The position numbers were made by a program, and so were the translations under genes. Of a stretch of 64,000 nt of DNA, positions 5,842 through 22,429 are shown one piece after another. Numbering within the stretch: position 1 is the stretch's first letter; every line of letters starts with the position of its first letter. Source of the DNA: an uncultured Verrucomicrobiota bacterium (GTDB taxonomy: Bacteria; Verrucomicrobiota; Kiritimatiellia; RZYC01); assembly GCA_964490935.1 (NCBI GenBank), contig CAZBEO010000001.1, forward strand, positions 20,742-84,741, given 5' to 3'. The notes under the pieces were generated by a model. It worked only from the letters and a program-made list of their open reading frames with translations. It made no database searches and was not told the origin of the DNA.

Positions 5842-6008
5842 AGAGAAAGAGTAACCAATCATACTCAATGACTGCAAGATTATTGCTCAATGGAGAAGGC
5901 CCCGGCAGGATAAGCAGGAGGAAAATCCGGTCCATCCCCTTCATCCCGTCTAAAATTATTGGTTACGACTATACTGCTCCAGTCTCTAGGCGCACCATGG
6001 GCACCCCC

Positions 6009-6856: not shown

Positions 6857-7822
6857 TTAGAGTTGGGCGACGCGGGCCTTTTGAATCCCGGTGAGCTGCA
6901 CGAGTATCTGCCGCTTGGAGCGTTCGTTCATGCAGAGAATGCGTTCACCGAGGCGCCCGGTGCTGAGGGCCTTGGCGCGCAGAGAAATCTGCAGGCTGCC
7001 CTGGCCAGCGGTCACCATGATGTAGTCGCCTTTTTTGGCGCACAAGGGGGTCCGCACGTAGTTGCGCAGAATGGGCGTGCCCTGTTTGACGGCGCGGTCC
7101 ATTTCCTGGCCGGTGATGGCTTCCTCCACCGGGATGCGCTTTTCGCCTTTGCGCTCCACCGGCATCCGTTCGCTGCGCAGGTCTTCCGGCTGGAGGAGTT
7201 GCCCGCAATCCAGGGCCCGTCCGGCCACCCAGACCTGCTGCAATTCATATTTTTTCAGTCGGACCGGGACATTGCAAATCGGCACTCCATCCACGGAGAT
7301 ATCGACCAGATAGGTGTCGTACTGATTAAAATTCCGGGCCTTGCGCGAGCGCGTCACCTGGAAAGCGGTTTCGCCGCGCGGTATCCAGATGTTGCGCTGG
7401 AGGGGCGCGAACTCCAGCATGAACTCATCGGAGTTGCCGCTCTTTATTCCGAGATGCTGCTCGACGGCTCCGGTCACTTCGCGGGGGGTGACCCGCCGTT
7501 GGGAACGGCTGACGGTGATCTTAATACTCCCGCTCACGCTGGCCGATTTCATGTCGGGGTATTGCTGAAGAGCGTAGGCCACGGAGGTGAGCGGATAGAC
7601 GGATGCTTCGTTGTCGAGGGGCGCATCGAACACCTTGCGATCGAGCCAACCTTCCGGGATGCCGGTCTGGTCCATCAGCATATCGCGCAGGAGAATGTCG
7701 GGTCCGGTTGAAACCACATCCGATTTAATCATCAGCACCTGGGCGCAGGCGAAGACGGGTACGGCGAGACAGCAAGCAATCAGCAGCAGTCTCCGGGCGT
7801 GGGTGCAGGCGTATTTTTTCAT
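6857..7822 (-). CDS. flgA: flagellar basal-body P-ring formation chaperone FlgA
   Basis: Signal peptide, SAF/FlgA C-terminal domain (GDYIMVTAGQGSLQISLRAKALSTGRLGERI). ATG at 7822 with an AAGGAG RBS. The ORF-track start at 7825 is a GTG. Confidence 0.75.
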   Translation of the reverse strand: MKKYACTHARRLLLIACCLAVPVFACAQVLMIKSDVVSTGPDILLRDMLMDQTGIPEGWLDRKVFDAPLDNEASVYPLTSVAYALQQYPDMKSASVSGSIKITVSRSQRRVTPREVTGAVEQHLGIKSGNSDEFMLEFAPLQRNIWIPRGETAFQVTRSRKARNFNQYDTYLVDISVDGVPICNVPVRLKKYELQQVWVAGRALDCGQLLQPEDLRSERMPVERKGEKRIPVEEAITGQEMDRAVKQGTPILRNYVRTPLCAKKGDYIMVTAGQGSLQISLRAKALSTGRLGERILCMNERSKRQILVQLTGIQKARVAQL

Positions 7823-7846
7823 CACAATGCTCCTTTTAAATGATTC

Positions 7847-8629
7847 CTATCGTCTCAAGGTGTTGGCAATGCCTTCCATTTCATCGGCGGCCTTGATGGT
7901 TTTCGAGTTGGCTTCGTAGGCGCGCTGCGAGAGGATCATGTGCACAAGTTCTTCGGCGGCATTCACGGCGGACGTTTCGGTGTACTTATGCGCTACCGTA
8001 CCCATGCCTTCCTCTCCGGGAATCATGCCGGCCTGCGGGGCACCGCTGGATTCCGATTCCGTAAACAGATTCCGCCCTATGCTGCGGAGCCCTTCGGGAT
8101 TCTGAAAGCGGACAAGCGTGACCTGGGCCAACTGAACCGGGTCGCCGTTGACGATCACGGTAAAGGACCCATCGGGTGCAACCGTGGTTTCGGTGGTTCC
8201 TTCGGGGATGTTGTCGAATCCGGTAACGCGATAGCCATCCACCGTGACGACCTCGCCGGTGGAGGTGCTGCGGAAGTTGCCGTCGCGAGTATAACCGGCG
8301 GTACCATCGGGCAGCGTAACCTCAAAAAACCCTTCGCCTTCGACCGCAAAATCCAGGTCACGTCCCGTTTCTTTGAGCGAGCCCTGCCGGAAGACTTTGG
8401 CGATTTCCGTCACCTTGGTGCCGTGTCCGATCTGTATGCCGTTGGGAATCTGGGCATCCCCGGATTCGGCGCCGGGGGTTAGCAGGGTGGAATAGAGCAT
8501 GTCCCCAAAGGAGATGCGGCTGGGTTTGTAGCCGGTGGTATTGATGTTGGCCAAGTTGTTGGCGATGGTGTCCAACGCCAGTTCCTGTGCCCTCATGCCT
8601 GATACGCCTGCCCATAATGAACGTTCCAT
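7847..8629 (-). CDS. flgG: flagellar distal rod protein FlgG
   Basis: N-terminal ANNLANINTTGYK and C-terminal ELVHMILSQRAYEANSK rod/hook motifs. AAGGAGG RBS. Confidence 0.85.
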   Translation of the reverse strand: MERSLWAGVSGMRAQELALDTIANNLANINTTGYKPSRISFGDMLYSTLLTPGAESGDAQIPNGIQIGHGTKVTEIAKVFRQGSLKETGRDLDFAVEGEGFFEVTLPDGTAGYTRDGNFRSTSTGEVVTVDGYRVTGFDNIPEGTTETTVAPDGSFTVIVNGDPVQLAQVTLVRFQNPEGLRSIGRNLFTESESSGAPQAGMIPGEEGMGTVAHKYTETSAVNAAEELVHMILSQRAYEANSKTIKAADEMEGIANTLRR

Positions 8630-8653
8630 GACTCCTCCTTGTGTAAAAACCGA

Positions 8654-9403
8654 CTAGGCACCCAGGGTGTTGATCATTTTAGTTTGATCCTCATCAAAGG
8701 TCCGTACCATCCGTTGATTGGCCTCAAAGGCCCGCATACAACTGATCATCTCCGCCAGCTCGTCGTAAATGGTCGTATTGCTTGCCTCGAGCGTCTTGTG
8801 CACAATTTCGTATTTATCAACATCGCCCTCACGGGCTGGCATATCTTCGGGCGCGCTGTAGAGTGCCGTTCCGGCCCGATCCAGGCGCTGCAAATCTTCA
8901 AACTGAACCACCTTGAGTGTGCCAAGCAGGTTGTTCTGCGCATCCCGAATGGTTCCGTCCGGCCCGGCGATGAGTTGGGAAAGATTGGCCTCCGGCGGCA
9001 CGACAATATTGCCGTTGGCGCCCTGCACCGGCATGCCGTCCATATTCTGCAGCGTACCATCCGGCCCCATCTTGAAATTCCCGTTTCGAGTATATAAATC
9101 GCGCTTGTCATCCCGTACCACAAAAAAACCGCTTCCCTGCACCGCGAAGTCCAGCGGACGTTCGGTCTGCTTGAGTGGTCCTTCGGTAAAATCAATGAAA
9201 ACCGGATCAAATCGACCTTTTTCGCGCAGGTCTTTGTAGAAATCAACCGACTGATTCAGGAGGGTGTCGAACACCTGGTCGCCCACGGTGAGCTTCTTAA
9301 ATCCAGGCATCGAGCTGTTCGCGATATTCTCGCTTATTGCCTGAAGGCGGTCCTGCTCGCGGCCAAGCATCTGAAATTCTGGACTGTAGAAATCGGCACT
9401 CAT
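8654..9403 (-). CDS. flgF: flagellar proximal rod protein FlgF
   Basis: ISENIANSSMPGFKK and C-terminal MISCMRAFEANQRM motifs. The start is taken at the internal ATG (MSADFYSPEF...), not the long ORF-track extension. No clear SD, so the start is uncertain. Confidence 0.65.
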   Translation of the reverse strand: MSADFYSPEFQMLGREQDRLQAISENIANSSMPGFKKLTVGDQVFDTLLNQSVDFYKDLREKGRFDPVFIDFTEGPLKQTERPLDFAVQGSGFFVVRDDKRDLYTRNGNFKMGPDGTLQNMDGMPVQGANGNIVVPPEANLSQLIAGPDGTIRDAQNNLLGTLKVVQFEDLQRLDRAGTALYSAPEDMPAREGDVDKYEIVHKTLEASNTTIYDELAEMISCMRAFEANQRMVRTFDEDQTKMINTLGA

Positions 9404-9414
9404 GCCGTGGGAAA

Positions 9415-9430
9415 AGCAGGTTGAATGCCA
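9415..9430 (-). promoter_or_regulatory. sigma54 (-24/-12)-like promoter, TGGCATTCAACCTGCT on the minus strand, upstream of flgF
   Basis: GG and GC elements spaced exactly as in TGGCACG-N4-TTGC. A near-identical motif sits divergently upstream of flgH. The -12 element lies only ~12 nt from the proposed flgF ATG. Confidence 0.4.
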
Positions 9431-9475
9431 CGCTTCGACCATTTCTTGCCAATACCTATACCGAACCAACCCACC

Positions 9476-9510
9476 TGCAACCTGCAACCCGCAACCCGGC
9501 ACCTGCACCC
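9476..9510. repeat. five tandem 7-bp units (TGCAACC TGCAACC CGCAACC CGGCACC TGCACCC)
   Basis: Seen directly in the sequence, located between the two divergent sigma54-like promoters. A candidate enhancer/activator-binding tract. Confidence 0.5.
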
Positions 9511-9518
9511 GCCTGATG

Positions 9519-9534
9519 TGGCATTCCTCCTGCT
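9519..9534 (+). promoter_or_regulatory. sigma54 (-24/-12)-like promoter TGGCATTCCTCCTGCT upstream of flgH
   Basis: GG-N10-GC spacing fits the consensus. It lies ~47 nt upstream of the flgH ATG, leaving room for a 5'UTR with the AAGAGG RBS. Confidence 0.45.
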
Positions 9535-12100: not shown

Positions 12101-13537
12101 ATGTCTTCACTAACCGATATCACCACCGTGGCCCGAAGCGGCATCCTGGCGCAGCAGGAAAAGCTGAACGTCATCGCCCACAACATCACCAACGTCAACA
12201 CCAAGGGCTACCATCGGCAAACAGCCGTTCTCGCCACCAACCCGGCGAACATGCCCAACATCAGCACCACCATACCCTATTCGCAGGGCACCGGCGTCAC
12301 CGTGCAGGATGTCATGCGCGAGTACGACCTGCTCCGCGAACGGGCCCTGCTTGACGAACGCTCCGGTGCCGCCAAAGATGAATTTCTGGCCAATCAGCTC
12401 CCCGATCTCGAAGCCATCCTCCTGACCGATACCGAAAACGGACTCGCCCAGACCCTCACCCAGTTCTGGACCGCCTGGCAGAACGTGGCCACCTATCCCG
12501 ACAACATCACCATGCGCAACGTGGCACTCGAAAAAGGCGCGCAGCTCGCAGCCGTACTGAGCAAAACGACCGGCTCCCTCCAGAATTACCGCGACGCCAT
12601 CTCCGCCGGAGTTTCCCCAAACATCACCGGTTCCGTGGCCGACGAGGTGAACAGCCTGAACACCATGACCGCCGAACTCCAGAACCTGAACCGGAAAATC
12701 ACCCTCTATCAGGGCACGCGTGTTTCCACCGCCGACCTCGAAGACCGCCGCGATCTGCTCGTGGCCGACCTCGCCAAGCAGGCGGAAGTCTCCGTCGATG
12801 CCGACTACAACATCAGCATCGACGGCCAACTCCTGCTCAGCGGCGATGGCCTTACCCGCAATGAACTGAATATTACCGCCGCCGATCCGCTGACCTTTGA
12901 TGTCAACGGAAACCCCGTAAACATCGAACAGGGCGTCATCGGAGGCTGGAACGAACTGACCGCCTACATTGACTCACTCGGCGACAATCTCGATGCCCTC
13001 GCCGCCGAAGTGATCGCGCAAGTCAACACCCTGCACACCTCCGGCTATGATCTCGACGGTAACCCCGGTCTGGTTTTTTTCACCGGCACCTCCGCCTCCG
13101 ACATTTCCGTCAATGCCGCCCTCTATAATGCGGGCAACCCCCTGCTCAACAATCCGCGACTCATTGCCGCCGCGCAAACCCTCTACGATCCCGGCGGGCC
13201 CAATGAAGGGGCCAACACCGGCGACGGCGCTATCGCCCTGGCCATTGCCGATCTCTCCGGCGCCGCCCTCGCCGCCCTCGGAAACCAGTCGTTCAATCAG
13301 TATTACACGGAGCTTGCCACCAACCTCGGAACGCAGATTGGAACCTTTCAGTCGCTGGCCGAGAGTGGCGCGGCCACTATTTCCGCCCTTGAAAACGCCA
13401 TTCAATCCGAATCAGGCGTCAGCCTCGATGAAGAACTGATTCACATGATCACCGCGCAGCGCGCCTACCAAGCGGCATCCAAACTGCTCTCTGAAACCAA
13501 CACCATGTTCGATGTGCTGATGTCCATCACCCGATAA
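12101..13537 (+). CDS. flgK: flagellar hook-associated protein 1 FlgK
   Basis: N-terminal ISGILAQQEKLNVIAHNITNVNTKGY and C-terminal LIHMITAQRAYQAASKLL motifs. Confidence 0.8.
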   Translation: MSSLTDITTVARSGILAQQEKLNVIAHNITNVNTKGYHRQTAVLATNPANMPNISTTIPYSQGTGVTVQDVMREYDLLRERALLDERSGAAKDEFLANQLPDLEAILLTDTENGLAQTLTQFWTAWQNVATYPDNITMRNVALEKGAQLAAVLSKTTGSLQNYRDAISAGVSPNITGSVADEVNSLNTMTAELQNLNRKITLYQGTRVSTADLEDRRDLLVADLAKQAEVSVDADYNISIDGQLLLSGDGLTRNELNITAADPLTFDVNGNPVNIEQGVIGGWNELTAYIDSLGDNLDALAAEVIAQVNTLHTSGYDLDGNPGLVFFTGTSASDISVNAALYNAGNPLLNNPRLIAAAQTLYDPGGPNEGANTGDGAIALAIADLSGAALAALGNQSFNQYYTELATNLGTQIGTFQSLAESGAATISALENAIQSESGVSLDEELIHMITAQRAYQAASKLLSETNTMFDVLMSITR

Positions 13538-13554: not shown

Positions 13555-13698
13555 ATGAAAAAGAAAAACACGCCAAGCCGCAACGCCCCTGCGGGAGAGT
13601 CCTTTAACCAGAACCTACAGGTCCTGACTCAGCAGCTCGGGCTCTACGCCATGCTCCTGCGCAACGCCTCCTCTAGGCAGCGCATAGTCAATTCTTAA
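13555..13698 (+). CDS. small hypothetical protein (47 aa) between flgK and the glycosylation-like genes
   Basis: ATG preceded by an ACGGAGA RBS; the same RBS is used by the next gene. No recognisable family. Not in the ORF track because it is under 60 aa. Confidence 0.3.
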   Translation: MKKKNTPSRNAPAGESFNQNLQVLTQQLGLYAMLLRNASSRQRIVNS

Positions 13699-13717: not shown

Positions 13718-15379
13718 ATGAAACAAGCCAGGCGAATCACCCTTCCAGCGCTTGACGACGCCTTGGAACACGCGAGACCCCGCAGCATCGTGCTGGTGGG
13801 CGCGGGCGGACCTCTGCCAGAACTGATTCGACTCCTGCGCGAACAGGAAGGGCTGGTCTGCCAGGGCATACTCGATCCCGACCCCGCGCTCAAAGGCGAA
13901 TTCATCGAAGACCTGGTCGTGCTCGGTTGGCTCGGAGATATTCCGCGCCACGCCTCCTGCGCCCTGATCGGACTCCCAAAACGCGCGAACGGCTTTGACC
14001 GTAAATCCGTTTATCATATTCTGCTCCGGCAGGGTCTTTGCCTACCGGTGCTTCAGGCGCGTTCGTCCGCCTCGGCACCGGATGTCACTTTGCCTGCAGG
14101 CACGGTCGTGCTCGAAGGGGCCGTGGTGGAACCGGGGGCCTCGCTGGGCGTCAACTGTCTGCTCGAGCCAGGCGCAAAGGTCACCCGCTGCGCTGCATTG
14201 GGCGAACATACCGTCCTGCACCGAAACACCACGTGGCGCAAAACCGGGCCAGCCCCCTCTGCGCAACCCGAGCCGCGCCAACAACTCGAAGCCGTCCTCG
14301 CCCAGGAACACGAACCCTTGCAGCGTATTATCGAGCGCATCAACTGGGCCAACATGGAAATCATCCTCGTGGTGAATCCGCAGGGACGCCTCATCGGAAC
14401 CATCACCGATGGCGACATACGCCGAGGGCTCCTCGCCGGGGTGGATATGAACCTGCCCGCCGGCCTCATCATGAACCGCACCCCGACCACCGCGCCGCAG
14501 GGCCTTTCCCGCAAAGAAATGCTGCACCTCATGCGCGAAAAATCCATTCGCCACCTGCCCGTGGTCGATGCCGAAGGCCGTCCGGTCCTGCTCGAACGCA
14601 TGGAACATATTTTGGATGCCATCAGCGGGCACGACGCTATCGTCATGGCGGGCGGCCTCGGCTCACGCCTGCGCCCGCTCACCAACGATACCCCCAAGCC
14701 GCTTCTGCCCGTCGGCAACCGCCCCATTCTGGACCACATTCTCGGCGGGTTGAAATCGGCAGGCATCGAGGAGGTGGTCCTCTCCCTGAACTACCGGGGC
14801 GACCAGATTCGCCACCACGTGGGCGACGGCGAACAGCACGGCATGCGCGTAAATTACGTCACCGAGAAAGAACGCCTCGGCACCGCTGGCGCGCTCTCGC
14901 TGCTAAATCCGCGTCCCACGCGCCCATTCCTGGTCATGAACGGCGATCTGCTCACGAATCTGAACTACGCCAAGCTGCTGCGCTTCCAGCAGGAAAACGA
15001 TTATGCGCTGGTTATGTGCGTGCGCCAGTACAAGATTCAGGTGCCCTACGGCGTGGTACAGATCACGCCCGAGGGACAGATCAACGCCCTGCAGGAAAAA
15101 CCCGTGCATGAACATTTCATCAATGCCGGAATCTACGTCATGAAGCCGCAGTGTCTCGATTACATTCCGCATCGGGCTTATTTTGACATGACCGATCTGA
15201 CCAATCTGCTCATCGAACGCGGCGAGAGCGTCGGCGCCTTTCCGCTGGTGGAATACTGGCGCGACATCGGACGTCCCGAAGACCTTCACGCCGCCACGGA
15301 GGAACACGCTCGCCACATTACTGCGGCAGGGGCTGCACGGCCCTGTACCTCACGCGTCCCGATGGAGGCCCTGGCATGA
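13718..15379 (+). CDS. tri-domain sugar-nucleotide enzyme: NeuD/PglD-like acetyltransferase + CBS pair + sugar-phosphate nucleotidyltransferase (PtmE-like)
   Basis: N-terminal Rossmann/hexapeptide region, central CBS (GTITDGDIRRG...IRHLPVVD), and a C-terminal segment AIVMAGGLGSRLRPLT...KPLLPVGN. Confidence 0.65.
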   Translation: MKQARRITLPALDDALEHARPRSIVLVGAGGPLPELIRLLREQEGLVCQGILDPDPALKGEFIEDLVVLGWLGDIPRHASCALIGLPKRANGFDRKSVYHILLRQGLCLPVLQARSSASAPDVTLPAGTVVLEGAVVEPGASLGVNCLLEPGAKVTRCAALGEHTVLHRNTTWRKTGPAPSAQPEPRQQLEAVLAQEHEPLQRIIERINWANMEIILVVNPQGRLIGTITDGDIRRGLLAGVDMNLPAGLIMNRTPTTAPQGLSRKEMLHLMREKSIRHLPVVDAEGRPVLLERMEHILDAISGHDAIVMAGGLGSRLRPLTNDTPKPLLPVGNRPILDHILGGLKSAGIEEVVLSLNYRGDQIRHHVGDGEQHGMRVNYVTEKERLGTAGALSLLNPRPTRPFLVMNGDLLTNLNYAKLLRFQQENDYALVMCVRQYKIQVPYGVVQITPEGQINALQEKPVHEHFINAGIYVMKPQCLDYIPHRAYFDMTDLTNLLIERGESVGAFPLVEYWRDIGRPEDLHAATEEHARHITAAGAARPCTSRVPMEALA

Positions 15380-16362
15380 ATGGAAAAACGGCCGTAGTCA
15401 CCGGCGCCTGCGGATTTATCGGCAGTCATCTCGCCGAGGAACTCGTTCGGCGCGGCGCACACGTCAAGGCGCTCGCCCTCTATGATGCACGCGGCGCACG
15501 CGGCTGGCTCGACCAGATTGATCCCGCCCTCGCACGCGAAATGGAACTCATTTCCGGCGACGTCCGCGACGCCGAGCAGATGCGCCGCCTCATCCGAAAA
15601 GATGATGTCGTCTTTCATCTCGCGGCCCTCATCGGCATACCCTATTCATACATCGCCCCGCGTTCCTACGTGCAGACCAATATCGAAGGCACCCTCAACA
15701 TCCTCGAGGCCGCACGCGAAGCCGGCGCGGCACGCGTCATGAACATGTCCACCAGCGAAGTCTACGGTTCCGCCCTGCGCGTGCCTATCGACGAAGATCA
15801 CCCCCTACAAGGACAAAGCCCCTATTCCGCCTCCAAAATCGGCGCGGAAAAAATGACGGAAAGCTATGTCAAATCCTTTTCGCTGCCTGCCGTCACCGTA
15901 CGTGCCTTCAACACCTTCGGCCCGCGCCAATCGCCCCGTGCCGTCATCCCCACCATCCTTATGCAACTGCTCGCTGGCGAAAAGGAACTCCACCTCGGAA
16001 ACCTGCACAGTACGCGCGATTTCAACTTTGTGGCCGACACCGTCGAGGGCCTAATCCGCCTCGCTTCCTGCGAAGCCGCCATTGGGCGGGCCGTCAACAT
16101 CGGCACCGGTGCCGAGATAACCATCGCCCAGCTCGCCGAAGCCGCCCAGCGCGCCGTCGGGCACACCGCTTCAATCATCGAAAAACAGGACCGCATGCGC
16201 CCCGAACAAAGCGAAGTACAACGTCTTTGCGCCGACGCCTCCCTGCTCCACTCGCTCACCGGCTGGACCCCACCCCCGCGCCTCGAGGAAGGCCTTCGCT
16301 TAACCGCCACATGGATGAAAACGGAACTGAACCGCTATGAGCCTCAACGATACTATGTTTAA
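15376..16362 (+). CDS. NAD-dependent epimerase/dehydratase (nucleotide-sugar 4,6-dehydratase-like)
   Basis: TGACGFIGSHL Rossmann fold, catalytic YSASK, ATGA start overlap with the upstream gene. Confidence 0.75.
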   Translation: MNGKTAVVTGACGFIGSHLAEELVRRGAHVKALALYDARGARGWLDQIDPALAREMELISGDVRDAEQMRRLIRKDDVVFHLAALIGIPYSYIAPRSYVQTNIEGTLNILEAAREAGAARVMNMSTSEVYGSALRVPIDEDHPLQGQSPYSASKIGAEKMTESYVKSFSLPAVTVRAFNTFGPRQSPRAVIPTILMQLLAGEKELHLGNLHSTRDFNFVADTVEGLIRLASCEAAIGRAVNIGTGAEITIAQLAEAAQRAVGHTASIIEKQDRMRPEQSEVQRLCADASLLHSLTGWTPPPRLEEGLRLTATWMKTELNRYEPQRYYV

Positions 16363-17077
16363 ACAGCCGCTGGCCCTCGCCCCGCGTGCCGTACTTTTTG
16401 ACCTGGATGACACCCTCTATCCAGAACGCCAATATGTGTTCAGCGGCTTTCAGGCCGTGGCCGCCTATATCCAGCGGGTGTACGGACTGCTTGTCTTCAA
16501 CGATCTGGTCAAGACCTACCTCACGGGCGAGCGGTCCAACGTCTTCGGAGCCACCCTCGAAAAACACTTCGGAAACGTCGAAGAGGCTGTCCTTAAAAAA
16601 ACACTCCACGTCTTCTGGACCCACACCCCGAAAATCGAACTCTATGAAGATGCCCGCATCTGCATGGCCCTGCTCTTCTCGCGCGGCATCAAGGTCGGCG
16701 TCATCACCACTGGACGCGGCGGCATCCAACAGAAAAAAATCGCCGCCCTCGAACTCGAACCCCTCCTCGACGGCATTATCTACACCGATGATCTTCTGGG
16801 CGACTCCGAACCCGGCCAGCCCAATGCCGACGCCTTTCACATCCTCGCCCTACAGCTCGAAGTCGAACTCAGCGACCTCTGCTTTGTGGGCGACAATCCG
16901 CTCACCGACTTCGCGATCCCCCGGCGCCTCGGCGTCAAAACCGTCCGCATACGCCGTCCCGGCGGTGAATTTTCCGAAGCCCAACCCCCCGCTCTCGGCT
17001 TTCAGGCCGACCGCGTCATCGAATCCCTCACCGATCTCCCCCGCCTCTTTCTCCCGGCCAACTCTATTCGACCCTGA
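16337..17077 (+). CDS. HAD-superfamily hydrolase (putative sugar-phosphate phosphatase)
   Basis: Motif I LFDLDDTLY and a C-terminal VGDNPLTD motif. Overlaps the upstream gene by 26 nt. Confidence 0.65.
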   Translation: MSLNDTMFKQPLALAPRAVLFDLDDTLYPERQYVFSGFQAVAAYIQRVYGLLVFNDLVKTYLTGERSNVFGATLEKHFGNVEEAVLKKTLHVFWTHTPKIELYEDARICMALLFSRGIKVGVITTGRGGIQQKKIAALELEPLLDGIIYTDDLLGDSEPGQPNADAFHILALQLEVELSDLCFVGDNPLTDFAIPRRLGVKTVRIRRPGGEFSEAQPPALGFQADRVIESLTDLPRLFLPANSIRP

Positions 17078-17211
17078 ACAGCGCCCCCCGGCAGCCCGCT
17101 CGCTTAGCCCCTCCTTCCCCTATCCAAAAAAGCGGCATATATGTATTGTTATTGACAGAATTAGGCGCTAGACACGGACACAAATCGAAACGGGGTTCCG
17201 GAGGGTCGCCC

Positions 17212-17619
17212 ATGTCCGCAGAGCTGAACATACTGATCGTTGATGATGAATTCAGCGCCAGGAAACTGCTGGAAATCATGCTCAAGCCGTACGGTCGCTG
17301 CGTGATGGCTGTGAACGGAAACGAGGCCATCAAAGCCGTGCAGCAGGCCCTTTCCAAGGATGACTACTTCGACCTCATCTGCCTCGACATCATGATGCCC
17401 GAGATGGATGGGCAGGAGGCCCTCAAAATCATTCGCCAGCTCGAAAACAAGCGTAGCCTTTGGCCTGGAAACGGCGCCAAGGTCATCATGACCACCGCCC
17501 TTCAAGATGCCTCGAATGTCATGACCGCCTTCATGGAGCAATGCGAATCCTACCTCGTCAAGCCCATCGAAAAAGAAGCCCTGCTCACCGAAATGCGCAA
17601 GCTGACGCTTATCCCCTGA
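17212..17619 (+). CDS. single-domain CheY-like response regulator
   Basis: ILIVDDE, the ICLDIMMPEMDG phospho-acceptor region, and a conserved K (YLVKP). Internal ATG used. Confidence 0.7.
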   Translation: MSAELNILIVDDEFSARKLLEIMLKPYGRCVMAVNGNEAIKAVQQALSKDDYFDLICLDIMMPEMDGQEALKIIRQLENKRSLWPGNGAKVIMTTALQDASNVMTAFMEQCESYLVKPIEKEALLTEMRKLTLIP

Positions 17620-17635: not shown

Positions 17636-18829
17636 GTGAAAGCCCTTCTCATCAAATGGCGGGACATGAACCCGCAGCTCAAACTCTTTCTTGCCGCCGT
17701 ACTGCTTTTTGGCGTCGCCGGCGGCATCTTCGACATCAGCTTCAACAACTACCTCAGCGACACCTTTCAAATCAGTGCCAAAACACGCGGCTGGCTCGAA
17801 TTTCCCCGCGAAACGCCTGGCTTTCTTACGGCTATCTTTGTCGGCCTCCTCTTCTTCATCCCGGAGACACGCATTGCCTCTCTGGCCGCCCTGCTGGCTG
17901 GCCTTTCCCTCATCAGCATAGCCGTCTGGGGACAGCAGTGGATACCCATGCTCATTCTCATGACGCTGTTCAGCACCGGACTGCACCTCTTTCTCCCCGT
18001 ACGCAACTCCGTGAGCATGCTCCTGGCAAAAGACGGCCGACACGGCCGGCGCATGGGGCAGGTCGGCGCTGTCCAGTTCGCCTCCGGCATCCTCGGCAGC
18101 GCCCTCATTTGGTTCGTCTTCCGAAAGACCTCCGGAAGCTACCCGCTGCTCTTCGTACTCGGCGGCATCCTAGCCCTGGTCGCCGCGGCACTCTTCTTCG
18201 CCATGCACCTGCCCGCTGCGCACCTTCAGCGCCCCAAATGGGTCTGGAACCGGCGATACTGGCTCTACTACGTTCTCGCCATCCTCTTCGGCGGGCGCAA
18301 ACAAATCTTTCTCACCTTCGGCCCCTGGGTGCTCATCCGCGAATACCACCAATCCGCCGCCGTCTTCGCCCAGCTCTGGGTGGTCGGAGCCATCGCCGGC
18401 CTCTTCTTTCAGCCCCTCCTCGGCAACCTCATCGACCGCTGGGGCGAGCGGAAAGTCCTCATCATCGACTCCATCCTCGTCACCACCGTATGTCTCGGCT
18501 ACGCCTGCTCACACTGGATTCCGAACCCCCGCCTCGTGCTACCCGTCCTCTTCGCCTGTTACTTGGGCGATCAGCTCCTCTTCGGCGTCAACATCGCCCG
18601 CATCACCTACATTTCCAAAATTGCCCTCAACCCAACCCATATCGCCCCGACCCTTTCACTGGGCAGCAGCCTGGACCACGCCGTATCCATGACCGTCCCC
18701 ATTCTGGGCGGCATTCTTTGGACCACCTACGGCTACCAAGCCGTCTTCCTGGCCGCCGCCGTACTCGCCCTGCTCATGCTCTTCTTCAGCGCCCTGATCC
18801 GCCTCCCCGCCCGCTGCGTGAAGCATTAG
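17636..18829 (+). CDS. MFS transporter
   Basis: ~12 predicted TM segments. GTG start with a GGAG RBS; an alternative ATG lies at 17666. Confidence 0.6.
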   Translation: MKALLIKWRDMNPQLKLFLAAVLLFGVAGGIFDISFNNYLSDTFQISAKTRGWLEFPRETPGFLTAIFVGLLFFIPETRIASLAALLAGLSLISIAVWGQQWIPMLILMTLFSTGLHLFLPVRNSVSMLLAKDGRHGRRMGQVGAVQFASGILGSALIWFVFRKTSGSYPLLFVLGGILALVAAALFFAMHLPAAHLQRPKWVWNRRYWLYYVLAILFGGRKQIFLTFGPWVLIREYHQSAAVFAQLWVVGAIAGLFFQPLLGNLIDRWGERKVLIIDSILVTTVCLGYACSHWIPNPRLVLPVLFACYLGDQLLFGVNIARITYISKIALNPTHIAPTLSLGSSLDHAVSMTVPILGGILWTTYGYQAVFLAAAVLALLMLFFSALIRLPARCVKH

Positions 18830-18991: not shown

Positions 18992-21900
18992 ATGCAAAAA
19001 ATATGGCGGTATGTGCAAAAAAGTGTGAAGCGGTATCGTTATGTGTCGCCTCTTGTGATGGGTTTTGTTTTTGGTTTATGCCGCATGGCCGCCGCGGCAC
19101 TCCCCGCAGATTTTCCTGCCATCACGGTGCCGGTATGCAGTGCTCCGTCCGAAGGCGATATCTTTCTGAGCAATTTCACGCAGGATTCGGATGTAAGTAC
19201 GACCCCGTATCTAATCATACTGAACAACGCAGGGGAGCCGATTGAATACCGAAGGCTGGACAGTCCGGTTAATACGGATTTCAAACGGCAGCCCAGCGGA
19301 GCAACCACGTATTTTCAACTGATGGATACCAACACCCTGGGAACCAATAAGTTTGCGTTCCACTTTGTGGATCGAAACCTGAATTCCACGGGAACCATCT
19401 CGGCGGTTACCACCGGCTTAATCACTGCGCTGACAGCGGAATGGATGACGGATGTTCACGAACTCCGTATGCAGGATAATGGACACGGCTACCTGCTGGC
19501 GTATCGTTTGACTCCCACCAACATGCTTTCTTATGGAGGAAAACTCAACGCGTTTGCCATCGACATGGCTATCCAGGAGGTGGATGCCGCCGGCAATCTT
19601 TACTGGCAATGGTCGCCTGAGAACTTCTTTACCCATCAAAACACCACGCCCGATGTGCCGCTGACCAACCGGATCGTTGATTATGCCCATTGCAATGCCG
19701 TTGATATCGATACAGACGGCCATATACTGCTTTCCACGCGCTACTTTGATGAAATTACCAAGATCAACCGGCAGACGGGTGAAATCATCTGGCGCATGGG
19801 GGGGAGTGCCTGCAGCAACAACCAGTTTACCTTTATCAATGATGATCAGCCGCAGGACGGGGGCGGCACCTTCACCGGGTTTTCCCACCAGCACGGGGTC
19901 CGCCGTCTTGCCAACGGAAACATCCTGCTCTTTGATAACGGCCACCTGAAGAACCCACCCTATTCGCGTGCGGTGGAGTATGCTGTAAACGAAGGGACGC
20001 TTACCGCCGAGAAGGTCTGGTCCTATACCCATTCTCCGCCGATTTCATCCACGGAGATGGGGTTTGCTCAGCGTCTGGCCAATGGCAATACTTTCATCTG
20101 CTGGGGCGGAAGTACCAGTCAGGTTGCCATTACCGAAGTGACGGCACAAAGCAACGTGGTCTTTGAGCTGACGCTGCCCGAAGGCGTGCACACCTACCGC
20201 GCGTTTAAACAATCCTGGACCACGAATATCTCCCCCACGAACACCTTTCTGCCGCCGCCGTATCGTCCGGATGGATGGCCCGCTCAGCACATGGGCGCGC
20301 ACAATTCCGACTGGGTGCCCCGCGAGATGCTGGACCTGCAGCAGACGAATGAAATGGCGAACGTACGGTTCATGTTGCGTGACCCGGCCAATCCGGTGGT
20401 CTGTGCCGGTGGAGGGGTGATTGTGGTATTGGACGGAAAGGAATATTTTATTGTCACGACCAGCTCGGTTAAATATCCCAATCTGTGCGCCCTGGATATG
20501 ACCGACGGGAGCGTCTACTGGCAATCCGCCCCGCTGACCAATGCCCCGTTTGGACAGTCTGCTCCCGGACCCGATTCCTGCGCCTCCACCGTGGCGCCCA
20601 TCGCCGATAAATATGGCAACATTTATCTGGCGGACTGTCATTATGTGTATTGTTACCGCATCGAAGCCCTCCCTGATGCGAGCGGGTATCAGCCGTGGAT
20701 ATGGCGTCAGCCCATGCCCAACCTGAAAATCTACAGCGATGTAGACGGCCTGTGGCACCCATCGAGTGATCCAACGGCGGCTGATACAAAGGGTTTCCCG
20801 TTTATGTCGTTTGTGCTTACCCCTGAAGTAGACGAAAACTATTACGTGGGCGGGTTTACGGTGCAGGGAGAAACCTTCATGTTTGATCACATCGACGGCA
20901 CCCTGGCGGGCGCGACGTATCTGGAAACCAACATGATCGGCACCGTCTCCAATCAGCCGCCCTGTGATCCGTACCTGTTTGCCGAAACCAACAATCCGAT
21001 GATTATGAGTTCAAACAATCCCATTCTGTTCGGCATCTGGGCAACCGGCATTACCAACACGGTGGATCCGGACCTGAAATATTTTATGAATCCCTGTCAG
21101 TTGAAGGGATATATGGAGGCCGGAACCTTCGGCATCGGAGCCATGGTGGCCAACAACCCCTGTATGATGAAAAATCCTACCAATCCGGCGGCCTGCCGTC
21201 TGTTTGTTGCGGGCGGGCAGTCCGAATATCTTAAGCAGTGGGATGTGGATACCAATACGCCCGATGTCATCATGTATGCCGTTGATTTTGATCCGACCGC
21301 CTCGTATTCCGGGCGGCTGGCCGTCTGCAACTACGACATCACAAACTACGTCGACTCCACGCCGCAGTTTGCCTTTAACGGGAGAATGGTTGACGGAGAG
21401 AGTTCCGCCACATCGCCCGACCTTTCCTATAACGAAAAGTGGCTTTTCTGCAGTGATAAAGCCGGGTCAAACTACTGCTTCGATACCCGGTCCGGCACCA
21501 CCGTCTGGTCCTACGACACCGGGGAGGCGCTGGGTTCTCCGACCACCTTTCAGAACGAAGACGAAGACGGCAACTTTCTATATATGACCATGGCCGGTTA
21601 TGATCCGTGGGCCTTCATGATCAACGCGGAAACCGGGCAGATTGCCTCCAACGAAACCTACGGACTGCTGGTGCGCAAACTTCCGCTTTCGCTCTATGTC
21701 CAAAGAAACTGCTGGCGCACGAATGAAGCCTATCAGCAGGTGTTTCAAAACACCGAAGGCTTTTTCACAAAGAACGCCATAGGCTCTTCGATCATATCCG
21801 GATGCAGTAACCGGGTCGAAATGATCTTCACCGTTGGATGGAAATATCCCATTCATATGCCTCCTGCGCTTGCGAATATGGCCACCATCCCGACCCATCA

Positions 21901-22429
21901 GCAGGTCGTATATCTGGACGTTGATAAACTGTGGAACAGCACCAACATGGCCGACCTTATTGCGGCGACCTACATGGACACCAACGGCACCAGTGAAGCC
22001 GGCTTTATTCCCAGTCCTTTAGGTAATCAGCGCGGAATTATGTTCTATATTTCTCAATCCTGCTGCATGGCCCAGTTCATGGATGTGAACAGTGCCGAAG
22101 GGCGGTTTGATTCGGGGCTGTATGCCTACCTGTATATGCCCGAAGACATGCGCTCACTGTATATGAAACCCTATGGCGGGCTCGGGCTGTTTAAGATTCC
22201 CTACGTCCCCGATTTTGCTGTTACGTCCATCGAACAGACCAACCAGAATCTCGCCTTGCAGTGGGATGCCAACCCCCCGGATGGAACGTTCACCGTGCAG
22301 TCCACGGATAATCTCATCCTGCCCGATTGGCAGCCGGCCGAACCAACGAACTTCTGGCCCTTTGCCGGGACCGTTTGGACGACCCAGTGCAGCAGCCCGC
22401 TGTTTTACCGGTTGATACTGGAACCCTGA
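18992..22429 (+). CDS. large secreted protein: arylsulfotransferase (ASST)-like N-terminal beta-propeller plus C-terminal PQQ-like repeat region
   Basis: ASST-like motifs HCNAVDIDTDGHILLSTRYFDEITKINRQTGEIIW and HQHGVRRLANGNILLFDNG. Later repeats (SVYWQS, TTVWSYDTGEALGSP). AAGGAG RBS. Confidence 0.55.
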   Translation: MQKIWRYVQKSVKRYRYVSPLVMGFVFGLCRMAAAALPADFPAITVPVCSAPSEGDIFLSNFTQDSDVSTTPYLIILNNAGEPIEYRRLDSPVNTDFKRQPSGATTYFQLMDTNTLGTNKFAFHFVDRNLNSTGTISAVTTGLITALTAEWMTDVHELRMQDNGHGYLLAYRLTPTNMLSYGGKLNAFAIDMAIQEVDAAGNLYWQWSPENFFTHQNTTPDVPLTNRIVDYAHCNAVDIDTDGHILLSTRYFDEITKINRQTGEIIWRMGGSACSNNQFTFINDDQPQDGGGTFTGFSHQHGVRRLANGNILLFDNGHLKNPPYSRAVEYAVNEGTLTAEKVWSYTHSPPISSTEMGFAQRLANGNTFICWGGSTSQVAITEVTAQSNVVFELTLPEGVHTYRAFKQSWTTNISPTNTFLPPPYRPDGWPAQHMGAHNSDWVPREMLDLQQTNEMANVRFMLRDPANPVVCAGGGVIVVLDGKEYFIVTTSSVKYPNLCALDMTDGSVYWQSAPLTNAPFGQSAPGPDSCASTVAPIADKYGNIYLADCHYVYCYRIEALPDASGYQPWIWRQPMPNLKIYSDVDGLWHPSSDPTAADTKGFPFMSFVLTPEVDENYYVGGFTVQGETFMFDHIDGTLAGATYLETNMIGTVSNQPPCDPYLFAETNNPMIMSSNNPILFGIWATGITNTVDPDLKYFMNPCQLKGYMEAGTFGIGAMVANNPCMMKNPTNPAACRLFVAGGQSEYLKQWDVDTNTPDVIMYAVDFDPTASYSGRLAVCNYDITNYVDSTPQFAFNGRMVDGESSATSPDLSYNEKWLFCSDKAGSNYCFDTRSGTTVWSYDTGEALGSPTTFQNEDEDGNFLYMTMAGYDPWAFMINAETGQIASNETYGLLVRKLPLSLYVQRNCWRTNEAYQQVFQNTEGFFTKNAIGSSIISGCSNRVEMIFTVGWKYPIHMPPALANMATIPTHQQVVYLDVDKLWNSTNMADLIAATYMDTNGTSEAGFIPSPLGNQRGIMFYISQSCCMAQFMDVNSAEGRFDSGLYAYLYMPEDMRSLYMKPYGGLGLFKIPYVPDFAVTSIEQTNQNLALQWDANPPDGTFTVQSTDNLILPDWQPAEPTNFWPFAGTVWTTQCSSPLFYRLILEP

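What the first reader, a model, noticed from the sequence alone, without database searches (positions are those of the whole stretch)
13718..17077. Compact flagellin-glycosylation-like module directly downstream of flgK, featuring an unusual tri-domain fusion
One polypeptide joins three domains: a NeuD/PglD-type acetyltransferase, a CBS pair, and a sugar-1-phosphate nucleotidyltransferase. In Campylobacter the CBS-nucleotidyltransferase (PtmE) and the acetyltransferases are separate proteins. The fusion gene is followed, with overlapping or coupled starts, by an NAD-dependent 4,6-dehydratase-like SDR and a HAD phosphatase. The neighbourhood to flgK and the subsequent CheY-like gene suggest a nucleotide-activated amino-sugar or nonulosonate-precursor pathway that decorates flagellar or surface proteins. 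The aminotransferase and NeuB-like synthase are not in this window.
Basis: partly seen in the sequence, partly recalled or inferred. Interest (0 to 1): 0.55.

Follow-up and report, generated by a model that had tools for sequence, protein, structure and literature searches.

The report
Flagellar-operon sugar-nucleotide module with degenerate acetyltransferase domain
Directly after the flagellar gene flgK, this Kiritimatiellae-like bacterium carries a small gene set for the first steps of a legionaminic-acid-type sugar, probably used to decorate the flagellum; its first enzyme has an extra domain that looks like an acetyltransferase but lacks the parts needed to transfer an acetyl group.

Summary
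The three ORFs exist as described: 13718-15379, 15376-16362 and 16337-17077, with 4-nt and 26-nt overlaps. The 553-aa protein has three domains. Its C-terminal two-thirds (CBS pair plus NTP_transferase) is PtmE/LegX-like, 49% identical to a CBS-NTase inside a canonical legionaminic acid (Leg) cluster. The SDR is LegB-like (TIGR04180, 424 bits against a cutoff of 475). The third gene is an intact HAD-IA hydrolase of unknown substrate.

The N-terminal domain is homologous to PglD/VioB/PerB-class N-acetyltransferases but is truncated. It keeps the nucleotide-binding residues. It has about half of the beta-helix and lacks the catalytic His, the oxyanion Gly and the CoA-binding turns. It is still under purifying selection (dN/dS about 0.10).

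The fusion is not a one-off. At least 78 protein clusters share it, from Kiritimatiellae, Lentisphaerota, Victivallales and other PVC-group assemblies. In all 10 independent loci examined it follows flgK and a conserved 45-55-aa ORF. Five loci add a LegC-like aminotransferase. In one relative a version without the N-domain sits between flgK and flgL.

No LegG, LegI or LegF gene lies in the window or in any locus.

Verdict: a new variant of a known kind, of moderate interest.

The parts
12101..13537 (+). flgK (hook-associated protein 1). This is the upstream anchor gene of the conserved arrangement.
   Evidence: TIGR02492 at 245 bits (cutoff 170.75); PF22638, PF06429 and PF00460. It precedes the fusion in all 10 independent loci.
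13555..13698 (+). Conserved small ORF (47 aa): a basic N-terminus followed by the motif L-x2-Y-L-x2-[YF]-x3-L-R. Function unknown.
   Evidence: A positional equivalent of 45-55 aa is present in all loci (85 aa as called in L011, 94 aa in L018), with a shared motif. GGAG lies 9 nt before the ATG. dN/dS is 0.05 against L004 (48 codons, dS near saturation). No Pfam or NCBIfam hit.
13718..15379 (+). Tri-domain protein (553 aa): truncated PglD-class domain, CBS pair, and PtmE/LegX-like sugar-1-phosphate nucleotidyltransferase.
   Evidence: AlphaFold model with mean pLDDT 89. 78 clusters of at least 500 aa share the architecture.
13778..14242 (+). N-terminal domain (aa 21-175): a Rossmann-like nucleotide-binding subdomain plus about 3.5 turns of left-handed beta-helix. 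It is a truncated, probably catalytically inactive homologue of Class I sugar N-acetyltransferases.
   Evidence: VioB 7txp at E 1.5e-14, covering only chain residues 3-152 of 217. PerB, PglB-ATD, WeeI and PglD are hit likewise. The top 21 Foldseek hits are all PglD-class. pLDDT is 98. Conserved: G28, D53, G85 and F93-D94-R95. The catalytic-His column 157 is variable. dN/dS is 0.10.
14300..14617 (+). CBS pair (Bateman module), aa ~195-300.
   Evidence: PF00571, two stretches, E 1.8e-12. Invariant G227, D231, R235 and R236 in alignment A2.
14633..15325 (+). Nucleotidyltransferase domain, aa ~306-536, PtmE/LegX-like and probably GTP-dependent.
   Evidence: PF00483 at E 3e-42. The best solved relatives are GDP-mannose pyrophosphorylases and HddC. 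It is 49% identical to the L017 CBS-NTase in a canonical Leg cluster. The G312-G313-x-G315-x-R317 and K327 motifs are invariant.
15376..16362 (+). LegB-like NAD-dependent NDP-HexNAc 4,6-dehydratase (328 aa).
   Evidence: TIGR04180 at 424 bits (cutoff 475); the next best hit is dTDP-glucose dehydratase at 172 bits. Motifs GACGFIG, TSEVYG and YSASK are present. It is 49% identical to the L017 LegB, which scores 529 bits. dN/dS is 0.04.
16337..17077 (+). HAD-IA hydrolase (246 aa) with intact catalytic motifs. Substrate unknown.
   Evidence: PF00702 and PF13419. DLDDT at aa 22 and GDNPLTD at aa 185. It is present after the SDR in six of the nine relatives that carry an SDR, and follows the fusion directly in L011. 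Close orthologues occur only in the same clade. dN/dS is 0.07.
17146..17619 (+). REC-only (CheY-like) response regulator. It is context only, conserved in the two nearest relatives. The true start is probably the internal ATG near 17212.
   Evidence: PF00072 at E 1.3e-18. The same gene follows the HAD in L004 and L005, where it is called as 135 aa.
17636..18829 (+). MFS transporter. It is context only, conserved in the two nearest relatives.
   Evidence: PF07690 at E 4.3e-19. Same position in L004 and L005.

Best explanation
This is a compact sugar-nucleotide module built into the flagellar flgHI-(rod-binding)-(flgN-like)-flgK operon of a Kiritimatiellae-like bacterium. It makes the first GDP-linked intermediates of a legionaminic-acid-type (or bacillosamine-type) 6-deoxy-amino-sugar, most likely for glycosylating the flagellum.

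Proposed steps:
1. The C-terminal CBS-nucleotidyltransferase of the 553-aa protein works like PtmE/LegX. It activates a hexosamine-1-phosphate with GTP (inferred from homology).
2. The translationally coupled SDR works like LegB. It converts GDP-GlcNAc to the GDP-4-keto-6-deoxy sugar (inferred from homology).
3. In many relatives a LegC-like aminotransferase, encoded immediately downstream, performs the next step. In this genome that gene must lie elsewhere if the pathway continues.
4. The HAD hydrolase is an active-looking phosphatase or mutase. It may supply the sugar-1-phosphate or remove a phosphorylated by-product (speculative).

The N-terminal domain descends from a PglD/VioB-class N-acetyltransferase. 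It has kept only the NDP-binding subdomain and the first half of the beta-helix. It most likely no longer transfers acetyl groups. It probably serves as an NDP-sugar-binding and/or trimerising regulatory module alongside the CBS pair (inferred).

Shown here: domain content, truncation, conservation, synteny and purifying selection. Inferred: substrates, GTP use, the flagellar target and the role of the N-domain.
For: PtmE/LegX likeness:
- CBS plus NTP_transferase architecture.
- 49% identity over 337 aa to P0105. In L017, P0105 sits in the order LegB - GSCFA - DegT - Epimerase_2 - NeuB - AcT - MT - CBS-NTase - GFO_IDH - CTP_transf_3 - adh_short.
- The best solved relatives are GDP-sugar pyrophosphorylases.
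- PtmE/LegX next to LegB is a published marker of GDP-dependent Leg pathways for flagellin glycosylation. PtmE is GTP-specific and LegB accepts only GDP-GlcNAc.

LegB likeness:
- TIGR04180 at 424 bits against 172 bits for the next family.
- The TSE, YxxxK and GxxGxxG motifs are present.
- 49% identity to a LegB that scores above the cutoff.

LegC in relatives: TIGR04181 at 388 bits against 267 bits for PseC.

Flagellar linkage:
- The fusion follows flgK and the small ORF in 10 of 10 independent loci.
- In L018 the order is flgK, small ORF, CBS-NTase, FlgL-like.
- A Maf-type PF01973 gene lies next to fliS in L006.
- There is no terminator-like site between flgK and the module, the gaps are 17-19 nt, and GGAG Shine-Dalgarno sites are present.

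N-domain degeneracy:
- It aligns only to the first ~150 residues of 194-220-aa enzymes.
- Published VioB catalytic and CoA-binding residues are absent or variable, while the nucleotide-binding residues are invariant.
- It is confidently folded and constrained, with dN/dS 0.10.
Against: - No LegH, LegG, LegI (NeuB) or LegF gene is in the 64-kb window or within about 10 kb of any of the loci. A complete Leg pathway is therefore unproven, and in this genome even LegC is missing nearby.
- The SDR and the relatives' DegT score below the curated LegB and LegC cutoffs.
- NCBIfam has no PtmE-specific model. UTP-type enzymes (archaeal GlmU, MurU) score nearly as well as GDP-type ones, so nucleotide specificity is not settled.
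- No glycosyltransferase or Maf gene is in the window.
- The accessory genes vary between loci. One locus has no SDR, and one has only the fusion.
- A family-invariant His164 in the last helix turn could mean residual or altered catalysis.
- The HAD's role is unexplained.
Confidence: 0.62

Rival explanations
1. The fusion is a genuinely bifunctional enzyme. The N-terminal domain is an active, minimised N-acetyltransferase. It either makes GDP-GlcNAc from GDP-GlcN (the step attributed to GlmU in C. jejuni, from memory) or does the LegH step, using the family-invariant His164 as base.
For: - Fusing enzymes of adjacent pathway steps is common.
- The domain is clearly homologous to Class I sugar N-acetyltransferases, including the GDP-sugar enzyme PerB.
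- The nucleotide-binding residues are invariant.
- His164 is conserved in 75 of 78 members.
- Purifying selection is strong.
- No separate acetyltransferase gene is seen in any of the loci.
Against: - All 78 members stop after about 3.5 of the 7 helix turns of VioB.
- The catalytic-His column is R/P/S/A.
- The oxyanion Gly153 equivalent falls in a variable, low-confidence linker.
- The Gly182-Met183-Gly184 pantothenate contact and Pro201 have no counterpart.
- His164 aligns to a Tyr in VioB and is 7 residues, not a whole helix face, from the catalytic column.
- A relative (L018) has the same flgK-linked NTase without the domain, so the domain is dispensable for the module's core role.
Confidence: 0.2
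2. The module feeds a general cell-envelope glycan (LPS, capsule or a general O-glycosylation system), or makes a different GDP-6-deoxy sugar. Its position after flgK is a genomic accident of this clade with no flagellar function.
For: - No flagellin, Maf or FlmG gene lies in the window.
- Other glycan genes are nearby: the PEP-mutase/cytidylyltransferase fusion at 981-2279 and the SDR at 3630-4571.
- Leg also occurs in LPS and S-layer glycans.
- The late Leg genes are not linked.
Against: - The position after flgK is kept across 50-89% protein identity in 10 independent loci, while everything downstream varies.
- In L018 the gene is between flgK and a FlgL-like gene.
- The junctions are tight and terminator-free.
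- Leg genes embedded in flagellar clusters have precedent (Plesiomonas; LegX in Brevundimonas).
Confidence: 0.12
3. It is a GDP-heptose / 6-deoxy-heptose type pathway. The NTase would be HddC-like, the HAD would act as a GmhB-like bisphosphate phosphatase, and the SDR would be a DmhA-like GDP-heptose 4,6-dehydratase.
For: - HddC is among the NTase's hits (NF049965 at 110 bits; PDB 5xhw and 6jq8 at E 2.8e-27).
- An NTase + HAD phosphatase + 4,6-dehydratase is the enzyme set of that pathway (from memory).
Against: - The SDR scores 424 bits to LegB but only 95 bits to GDP-mannose dehydratase, and E 7.6e-23 to the solved GDP-heptose dehydratase 7us5.
- The HAD is a capped HAD-IA of 246 aa, with only a weak HAD-IIIA match (E 1.5e-5). 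GmhB is a cap-less protein of about 190 aa (from memory).
- No GmhA or HddA gene is nearby.
- Relatives add a LegC-family aminotransferase.
- The closest NTase relative found in an identifiable pathway cluster sits with NeuB.
Confidence: 0.04

Closest known systems
PtmE (C. jejuni Cj1329) / LegX (Brevundimonas Bresu_3267): GlcN-1-P guanylyltransferase of GDP-dependent legionaminic acid biosynthesis
   Same: - Same CBS pair plus NTP_transferase core.
- Encoded directly upstream of a LegB-type dehydratase.
- Associated with flagellar glycosylation.
- 49% identical to a PtmE-type protein inside a canonical Leg cluster.
   Different: - It carries an extra N-terminal domain of about 190 aa derived from a PglD-class acetyltransferase (553 aa against about 350 aa).
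- It is embedded in the flgK operon and not in a NulO island.
- The late Leg genes are not linked.
- Activity and GTP specificity are untested.
Class I sugar N-acetyltransferases (PglD, VioB, PerB, Neisseria PglB-ATD, WeeI, NeuD/LegH)
   Same: - Same N-terminal alpha/beta nucleotide-binding subdomain followed by a left-handed beta-helix.
- Conserved counterparts of VioB Gly8, Asp32, Gly67 and the Arg72 region.
- The top sequence and structure matches are all from this class.
   Different: - About 3.5 helix turns instead of 7.
- No conserved catalytic His, no oxyanion Gly, no CoA/pantothenate-binding turns and no C-terminal Pro.
- Scores 51 bits against the 160.8 cutoff of TIGR03570.
- It was found only as the N-terminal part of this fusion family (one of the three family representatives is a 329-aa entry whose completeness was not checked).
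LegB (GDP-GlcNAc 4,6-dehydratase, TIGR04180) and LegC (TIGR04181)
   Same: - These are the best-scoring families for the window's SDR and for the relatives' DegT.
- The dehydratase-type TSE and YxxxK residues are present.
- The gene order NTase-dehydratase-aminotransferase matches the pathway order.
   Different: - Both score below the curated cutoffs (424 of 475; 388 of 420), so this is a divergent sub-clade.
- A HAD gene is inserted between them.
- LegC is absent from this window.
Flagellar gene clusters that embed nonulosonate genes (Plesiomonas shigelloides polar flagella cluster; Campylobacter, Aeromonas and Geobacillus flagellin glycosylation islands)
   Same: Sugar-biosynthesis genes for Leg or Pse are placed inside flagellar loci, with Maf-type transferases nearby. 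L006 has a PF01973 gene next to fliS.
   Different: - Here only the early GDP-sugar steps are embedded.
- They lie at a fixed site right after flgK (between flgK and flgL in L018).
- They occur in PVC-group bacteria, for which no flagellar glycosylation has been reported in the searchable literature.
GlmU and archaeal bifunctional sugar-1-P nucleotidyltransferase/acetyltransferases (e.g. TIGR03992)
   Same: One polypeptide combines an NTP_transferase domain with a left-handed beta-helix domain. The NTase domain scores 167 bits to TIGR03992.
   Different: - The domain order is reversed (beta-helix first).
- The beta-helix belongs to the PglD class with its own Rossmann-like subdomain.
- A CBS pair is inserted.
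- The helix is truncated and lacks catalytic residues.

Membership tests
PtmE/LegX-type CBS-nucleotidyltransferase | CBS pair followed by an NTP_transferase (PF00483) domain with intact G-G-x-G-x-R-L...K signature | tested here: met
   PF00571 x2 and PF00483 at E 3e-42. G312, G313, G315, R317 and K327 are invariant in 97 sequences.
PtmE/LegX-type CBS-nucleotidyltransferase | Close sequence relationship to a member located in a canonical Leg cluster (with NeuB, Epimerase_2, CTP_transf_3) | tested here: met
   49% identity over 337 aa (E 2e-110) to the L017 CBS-NTase.
PtmE/LegX-type CBS-nucleotidyltransferase | Encoded next to a LegB-type dehydratase | tested here: met
   ATGA overlap with the LegB-like SDR. 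The same holds in 8 of 10 related loci.
PtmE/LegX-type CBS-nucleotidyltransferase | Two-domain protein of about 350 aa | tested here: not met
   553 aa with an additional N-terminal domain. The two-domain form exists in relatives (L017, L018).
PtmE/LegX-type CBS-nucleotidyltransferase | GTP-specific activation of GlcN-1-P | not testable with these tools
   Only indirect evidence: the best solved relatives are GDP-sugar pyrophosphorylases, but UTP-type families score similarly in NCBIfam.
Class I sugar N-acetyltransferase (PglD/VioB/PerB/NeuD; TIGR03570) | N-terminal alpha/beta subdomain with conserved nucleotide-binding Gly, Asp, Gly and Arg | tested here: met
   G28 (76/78), D53 (78/78), G85 (71/78) and F93-D94-R95 (77, 76 and 78 of 78) align to VioB G8, D32, G67 and the R72 region.
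Class I sugar N-acetyltransferase (PglD/VioB/PerB/NeuD; TIGR03570) | Full left-handed beta-helix (seven turns in VioB), including the CoA-binding turns and the C-terminal Pro | tested here: not met
   Alignments end at chain residue 140-157 of 194-220. The model shows about 11 helix faces, aa 112-173, then a disordered linker. All 78 members have the same length.
Class I sugar N-acetyltransferase (PglD/VioB/PerB/NeuD; TIGR03570) | Catalytic histidine (VioB His135 / PglD His125 / PerB His141) | tested here: not met
   The aligned column 157 is Arg in the window and R/P/S/A/Q across the family.
Class I sugar N-acetyltransferase (PglD/VioB/PerB/NeuD; TIGR03570) | Score above the curated family cutoff | tested here: not met
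   51.4 bits against a cutoff of 160.8.
LegB NAD-dependent 4,6-dehydratase (TIGR04180) | Score above the curated cutoff (475 bits) | tested here: not met
   424.3 bits. It is still by far the best family (next best 172 bits). The L017 LegB scores 529.5 bits.
LegB NAD-dependent 4,6-dehydratase (TIGR04180) | Extended-SDR dehydratase residues: GxxGxxG, Thr-x-Glu, YxxxK | tested here: met
   GACGFIG at aa 10, TSEVYG at aa 126 and YSASK at aa 150.
LegB NAD-dependent 4,6-dehydratase (TIGR04180) | Specificity for GDP-GlcNAc | not testable with these tools
   Shown biochemically for the T. forsythia and C. jejuni enzymes only.
Complete CMP-legionaminic acid pathway | LegC aminotransferase present | tested here: not met
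   Absent from the 64-kb window. It is present directly after the module in L001, L003, L006, L010 and L012.
Complete CMP-legionaminic acid pathway | LegH, LegG (Epimerase_2), LegI (NeuB) and LegF (CTP_transf_3) present | tested here: inconclusive
   None is in the window or within about 10 kb of the module in 11 loci. The rest of these genomes could not be searched.
Flagellin glycosylation system | Dedicated flagellin glycosyltransferase (Maf/PF01973 or FlmG) in the flagellar locus | tested here: inconclusive
   A PF01973 gene lies next to fliS in L006 only. None is in the window. A search with the Maf fragment was uninformative.
HAD-IA phosphatase | Motif I DxDxT and motif IV GDxxxD, plus a cap insertion | tested here: met
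   DLDDT at aa 22 and GDNPLTD at aa 185. 246 aa, with about 75 aa between motif I and the core. No specific equivalog was matched (best is TIGR02253 at 65 bits of 170).

The most novel reading that the evidence does not exclude
The truncated PglD-like domain is a new kind of regulatory 'pseudo-acetyltransferase'. It would bind the pathway's GDP-sugar product (or a related NDP-sugar) and, together with the CBS pair, tune the guanylyltransferase. Supply of the glycan donor would then be matched to flagellar assembly, which would explain why it is hard-wired, with a conserved ~47-aa partner protein, into the hook-associated flgK(-flgL) operon across Kiritimatiellota and Lentisphaerota. A variant of this reading is that the domain is a minimal acetyltransferase that uses His164 and a non-canonical acyl donor.
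Probability: 0.25. Interest if true: 0.6.

Novelty: new variant of a known kind. Interest (0 to 1): 0.42.

Why it matters
- It would extend legionaminic-acid-type flagellar glycosylation to the largely uncultured PVC lineages Kiritimatiellota and Lentisphaerota. No such modification has been reported for them.
- It provides a simple genomic marker: a PtmE-like gene fixed after flgK.
- It gives an example of an enzyme domain (a PglD-class acetyltransferase) cut down to its nucleotide-binding half and kept under selection as an accessory domain. This is a caution for automated annotation, which could read a bifunctional acetyltransferase/nucleotidyltransferase from the domain homology.
- The conserved small ORF, and the placement between flgK and flgL in one relative, suggest coupling between hook-filament junction assembly and glycan-donor synthesis that could be tested.

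Tried and rejected
1. Looked up the window protein's own contig: no record.
2. The genome-contig scan was run with the single protein instead of an alignment.
3. Used the Maf C-terminal fragment of L006 to reach flagellin-glycosylation islands in these lineages.
4. The full-model fold search was dominated by NTases and said nothing about the N-domain. This was solved by predicting the N-domain separately.
5. Tried to transfer a function to the HAD from distant homologues. They sit after ATP-grasp ligases in unrelated polysaccharide clusters, so no transfer was made. From memory, the C. jejuni Cj1435-type phosphatase that follows an amidoligase is a similar pairing, but no ATP-grasp gene is present here.
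6. Sigma-54 box search: plausible GG-N10-GC boxes lie in the flgF/flgH divergent region, but the window-wide count equals the chance expectation, so they are reported only in passing.
7. Rejected the GDP-heptose reading and the RmlA/GlmU cell-wall reading on family scores.
8. Rejected an assembly artefact or gene-merger error as the origin of the fusion: 78 independent clusters share it.

Full report
**1. What is there**

| Coordinates | Strand | Length | Junction |
|---|---|---|---|
| 13718-15379 | + | 553 aa | - |
| 15376-16362 | + | 328 aa | start overlaps the previous stop as ATGA |
| 16337-17077 | + | 246 aa | overlaps the SDR by 26 nt |

The 26-nt overlap is preserved in six related loci. 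Upstream lie flgH, flgI, a rod-binding-like gene, a flgN-like gene and flgK (12101-13537; TIGR02492 at 245 bits). flgF, flgG and flgA are on the opposite strand. Downstream lie a REC-only response regulator, an MFS transporter and a 1145-aa arylsulfotransferase-like protein.

A 47-aa ORF at 13555-13698 sits between flgK and the fusion gene. It has its own GGAG Shine-Dalgarno site.

The closest relatives are Kiritimatiellae MAGs. L004 (GCA_028708815.1) is 89-97% identical at the protein level.

**2. Domains of the 553-aa protein**

- Pfam finds NTP_transferase (aa 307-530, E 3e-42) and a CBS pair.
- NCBIfam adds a weak, partial match of aa 24-169 to the NeuD/PglB/VioB family: 51 bits against a cutoff of 160.8, covering model positions 2-146 of 202.
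- An AlphaFold model built on 97 homologues is confident (mean pLDDT 89). It shows three folded units joined by a disordered linker at aa 176-183.
- No solved structure has this three-domain layout.

**3. The C-terminal two-thirds is PtmE/LegX-like**

- The best solved relatives of the NTase domain are GDP-mannose pyrophosphorylases (7whr at E 1e-32; 7d72; 7x8j) and the GDP-heptose enzyme HddC. RmlA and GlmU are far weaker.
- Among database homologues, proteins of about 350 aa with only CBS plus NTase are 43-50% identical over that region.
- One of them, P0105, sits in a textbook legionaminic acid cluster in L017. The order is LegB (TIGR04180 at 529 bits, above cutoff), GSCFA, DegT, Epimerase_2, NeuB, acetyltransferase, methyltransferase, CBS-NTase, GFO_IDH, CTP_transf_3, adh_short. 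From memory, the last four reproduce the C. jejuni ptmE-ptmF-ptmB-ptmA order.
- The window protein (aa 200-530) is 49% identical to that CBS-NTase, with E 2e-110.
- Published work shows that PtmE is GTP-specific on GlcN-1-P. It also shows that LegB accepts only GDP-GlcNAc, and that a PtmE/LegX gene next to legB marks GDP-dependent Leg pathways used for flagellin glycosylation.

**4. The SDR and the HAD**

- The SDR scores 424 bits to LegB (TIGR04180, cutoff 475). The next family, dTDP-glucose 4,6-dehydratase, scores 172 bits.
- It has GACGFIG, TSEVYG and YSASK, the dehydratase-type Thr/Glu/Tyr/Lys set. It is 49% identical to the bona fide LegB of L017.
- The HAD has intact motifs (DLDDT and GDNPLTD) and a cap insertion, but no specific family assignment and no close solved relative.
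- Close HAD orthologues occur only in the same clade. More distant ones (35-40% identity) in Geothrix and a Clostridiales MAG follow an ATP-grasp ligase in polysaccharide clusters. That is a different context, so I do not transfer a function. The HAD's role here remains the least explained part.

**5. The N-terminal domain is a truncated, probably inactive descendant of a PglD-class acetyltransferase**

- Alone, it hits VioB (7txp) at E 6e-9. A profile of 25 family members hits VioB (1.5e-14), PerB, Neisseria PglB-ATD, WeeI and PglD.
- In every case the match covers only the first 140-157 residues of enzymes that are 194-220 residues long.
- A separate model of the domain has pLDDT 98 over aa 21-175. 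Its top 21 structural matches are all enzymes of this class, with TM-scores of 0.25-0.66, most at or above 0.44.
- The model shows about 11 helix faces (aa 112-173), or about 3.5 turns. VioB has seven.

Mapping the published VioB residues onto the family:

| VioB residue and role | Family counterpart | Status |
|---|---|---|
| Gly8 (nucleotide site) | G28 | conserved, 76/78 |
| Asp32 (ribose contact) | D53 | invariant, 78/78 |
| Gly67 (pyrophosphate contact) | G85 | conserved, 71/78 |
| Arg72 region | F93-D94-R95 | 77, 76 and 78 of 78 |
| His135 (catalytic base) | column 157 | variable: R, P, S, A, Q |
| Gly153 (oxyanion) | aa 175-177 | variable, disordered linker |
| Gly182-Met183-Gly184 (pantothenate contact) | none | absent |
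| Pro201 | none | absent |

All 78 full-length members have the same short domain (140-162 residues between two fixed columns).

An exhaustive search of 1.8 billion representatives found the truncated form only in this fusion family, as three representatives. One of these is a 329-aa entry whose completeness I did not check. The other listed hits are almost all standalone enzymes of about 200-230 aa, plus a few longer multidomain proteins. All of them match over about 150 residues of their own acetyltransferase domain.

The domain is not decaying. dN/dS against L004 is 0.10 for its core, the same as for the NTase domain. A family-specific His164 is nearly invariant (75 of 78).

My reading is that it retains NDP(-sugar) binding and perhaps trimerisation, but not canonical acetyl-CoA-dependent catalysis. 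I put a residual or novel catalytic role at about 0.2.

**6. The flagellar linkage is the strongest new result**

I examined ten independent related loci at 50-89% identity to the fusion: L001, L003, L004 (= L008), L005 (= L009), L006, L007, L010, L011, L012 and L013. They come from Kiritimatiellae, Lentisphaerae GWF2_57_35, Victivallales and assemblies labelled Verrucomicrobiota. In every one the fusion gene follows flgK and a small ORF, within flgF-G-A-H-I-x-x-K.

What follows the fusion varies:

| Downstream genes | Loci |
|---|---|
| SDR-HAD-RR-MFS | window, L004, L005 |
| SDR-HAD-DegT | L001, L006, L010 |
| SDR-DegT | L003, L012 |
| SDR-HAD | L007 |
| HAD only | L011 |
| none (rpoN next, then a FlgL-like gene) | L013 |

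- The DegT is best matched by the LegC family (TIGR04181 at 388 bits, cutoff 420; PseC scores 267).
- In L018 a 364-aa CBS-NTase without any N-domain remnant occupies the same site. It is preceded by a 94-aa member of the small-ORF family and followed by a FlgL-like gene (TIGR02550 at 105 bits). There the sugar gene sits between flgK and flgL.
- L006 has a Maf-type (PF01973) gene next to fliS.
- In the window there is no terminator-like site between flgK and the module, and the gaps are 17-19 nt. Co-transcription with flgK is therefore likely, but it is inferred.

**7. What is missing**

Pfam scans of the selected large ORFs (all but the 1808-aa ORF at 23605-29031), and a frame-independent tblastn with the L017 Leg enzymes, find only PtmE-, LegB- and LegC-like genes in the window and the loci. 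No LegG, LegI/NeuB, LegF, PtmF or full-length acetyltransferase is present.

The window's lineage also lacks the LegC gene at this site. The module therefore encodes only the early GDP-sugar steps. Whether the product ends as legionaminic acid, a bacillosamine-type sugar or something else cannot be decided from the sequence available.

**8. The small ORF**

- It is present in all loci at 45-55 aa (85 aa as called in L011, 94 aa in L018).
- It has a basic N-terminus and the shared motif L-x2-Y-L-x2-[YF]-x3-L-R.
- It has a Shine-Dalgarno site.
- dN/dS is 0.05 against L004. With 48 codons and dS near saturation this is only a rough value.
- It has no family match.
- It is probably a real protein tied to this module or to FlgK.

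**9. Comparison with known systems, and novelty**

- In function this is the known PtmE/LegX - LegB (- LegC) front end of GDP-dependent Leg biosynthesis. Leg genes inside flagellar clusters have precedent.
- Three things are new. The first is the clade-wide fusion of PtmE to a truncated, catalytically stripped PglD-class domain. The second is the fixed insertion of this gene and a small ORF after flgK in PVC-group bacteria. The third is the HAD partner.
- I found no description of any of this in the searchable literature.
- I rate it a new variant of a known kind, with interest 0.42. The biology is plausible and testable, but it is not a categorical surprise, and the key functional claims rest on inference.

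Noticed in passing
window 13555-13698 (+): A conserved 47-aa ORF lies between flgK and the fusion gene. It has a basic N-terminus and the motif L-x2-Y-L-x2-[YF]-x3-L-R. It is found at the same position in all related loci and appears to be under purifying selection. It has no family match.
   Followed up: partly
L018 8684-11105: In GCA_037963515.1 a 364-aa CBS-NTase without the N-terminal domain sits between flgK (plus a 94-aa small-ORF relative) and a FlgL-like gene. The sugar gene is therefore inserted inside the flgK-flgL pair, and the N-domain is dispensable or was acquired later.
   Followed up: partly
window 981-2279 (-): A 432-aa fusion of a cytidylyltransferase-like domain (PF01467) with PEP phosphomutase (PF13714) suggests phosphonate synthesis or activation, possibly for glycan decoration. 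An SDR epimerase lies nearby at 3630-4571 (-).
   Followed up: no
window 9415-9430 (-) and 9519-9534 (+): Two sigma-54-like boxes (TGGCAT-N5-CTGCT) face outward in the divergent flgF/flgH intergenic region. rpoN lies just downstream of the module in L001, L006 and L013. Window-wide, the pattern count is no higher than chance.
   Followed up: partly
window 6857-9508 (-) versus 9425 onward (+): flgF-flgG-flgA are inverted relative to flgH-I-...-K in the window. They are co-directional and contiguous in L001, L003, L006, L007, L010, L012, L013 and L018. L005 has a different gene upstream of flgH, so the nearest relatives are also rearranged.
   Followed up: no
L001 14817-15599; L006 14946-15758: A pentapeptide-repeat protein (PF00805, E 9e-56) followed by rpoN lies directly after the LegC-like gene in two loci.
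   Followed up: no
L014 6015-7690; L016 5334-7669: Distant relatives of the HAD (35-40% identity) in Geothrix and a Clostridiales MAG overlap the stop of a PylC-like ATP-grasp ligase inside polysaccharide clusters. This is a recurring ligase-phosphatase pair unrelated to the flgK context.
   Followed up: partly
window 2313-3494 (-) and 4660-5877 (-): Two paralogous AAA_14 + DUF4143 ATPase genes flank the SDR epimerase.
   Followed up: no
window 18992-22429 (+) and 23605-29031 (-): A 1145-aa protein with arylsulfotransferase (ASST) beta-propeller and PQQ-like repeats, and an unexamined 1808-aa ORF on the opposite strand.
   Followed up: no
L010 9923-11581: In Lentisphaerae GWF2_57_35 the public protein (P0076, 358 aa) is annotated without the N-terminal domain. 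The DNA nevertheless encodes the full fusion: tblastn covers query aa 21-553 and an uninterrupted 552-aa ORF is present. The deposited start codon is probably too far downstream.
   Followed up: partly
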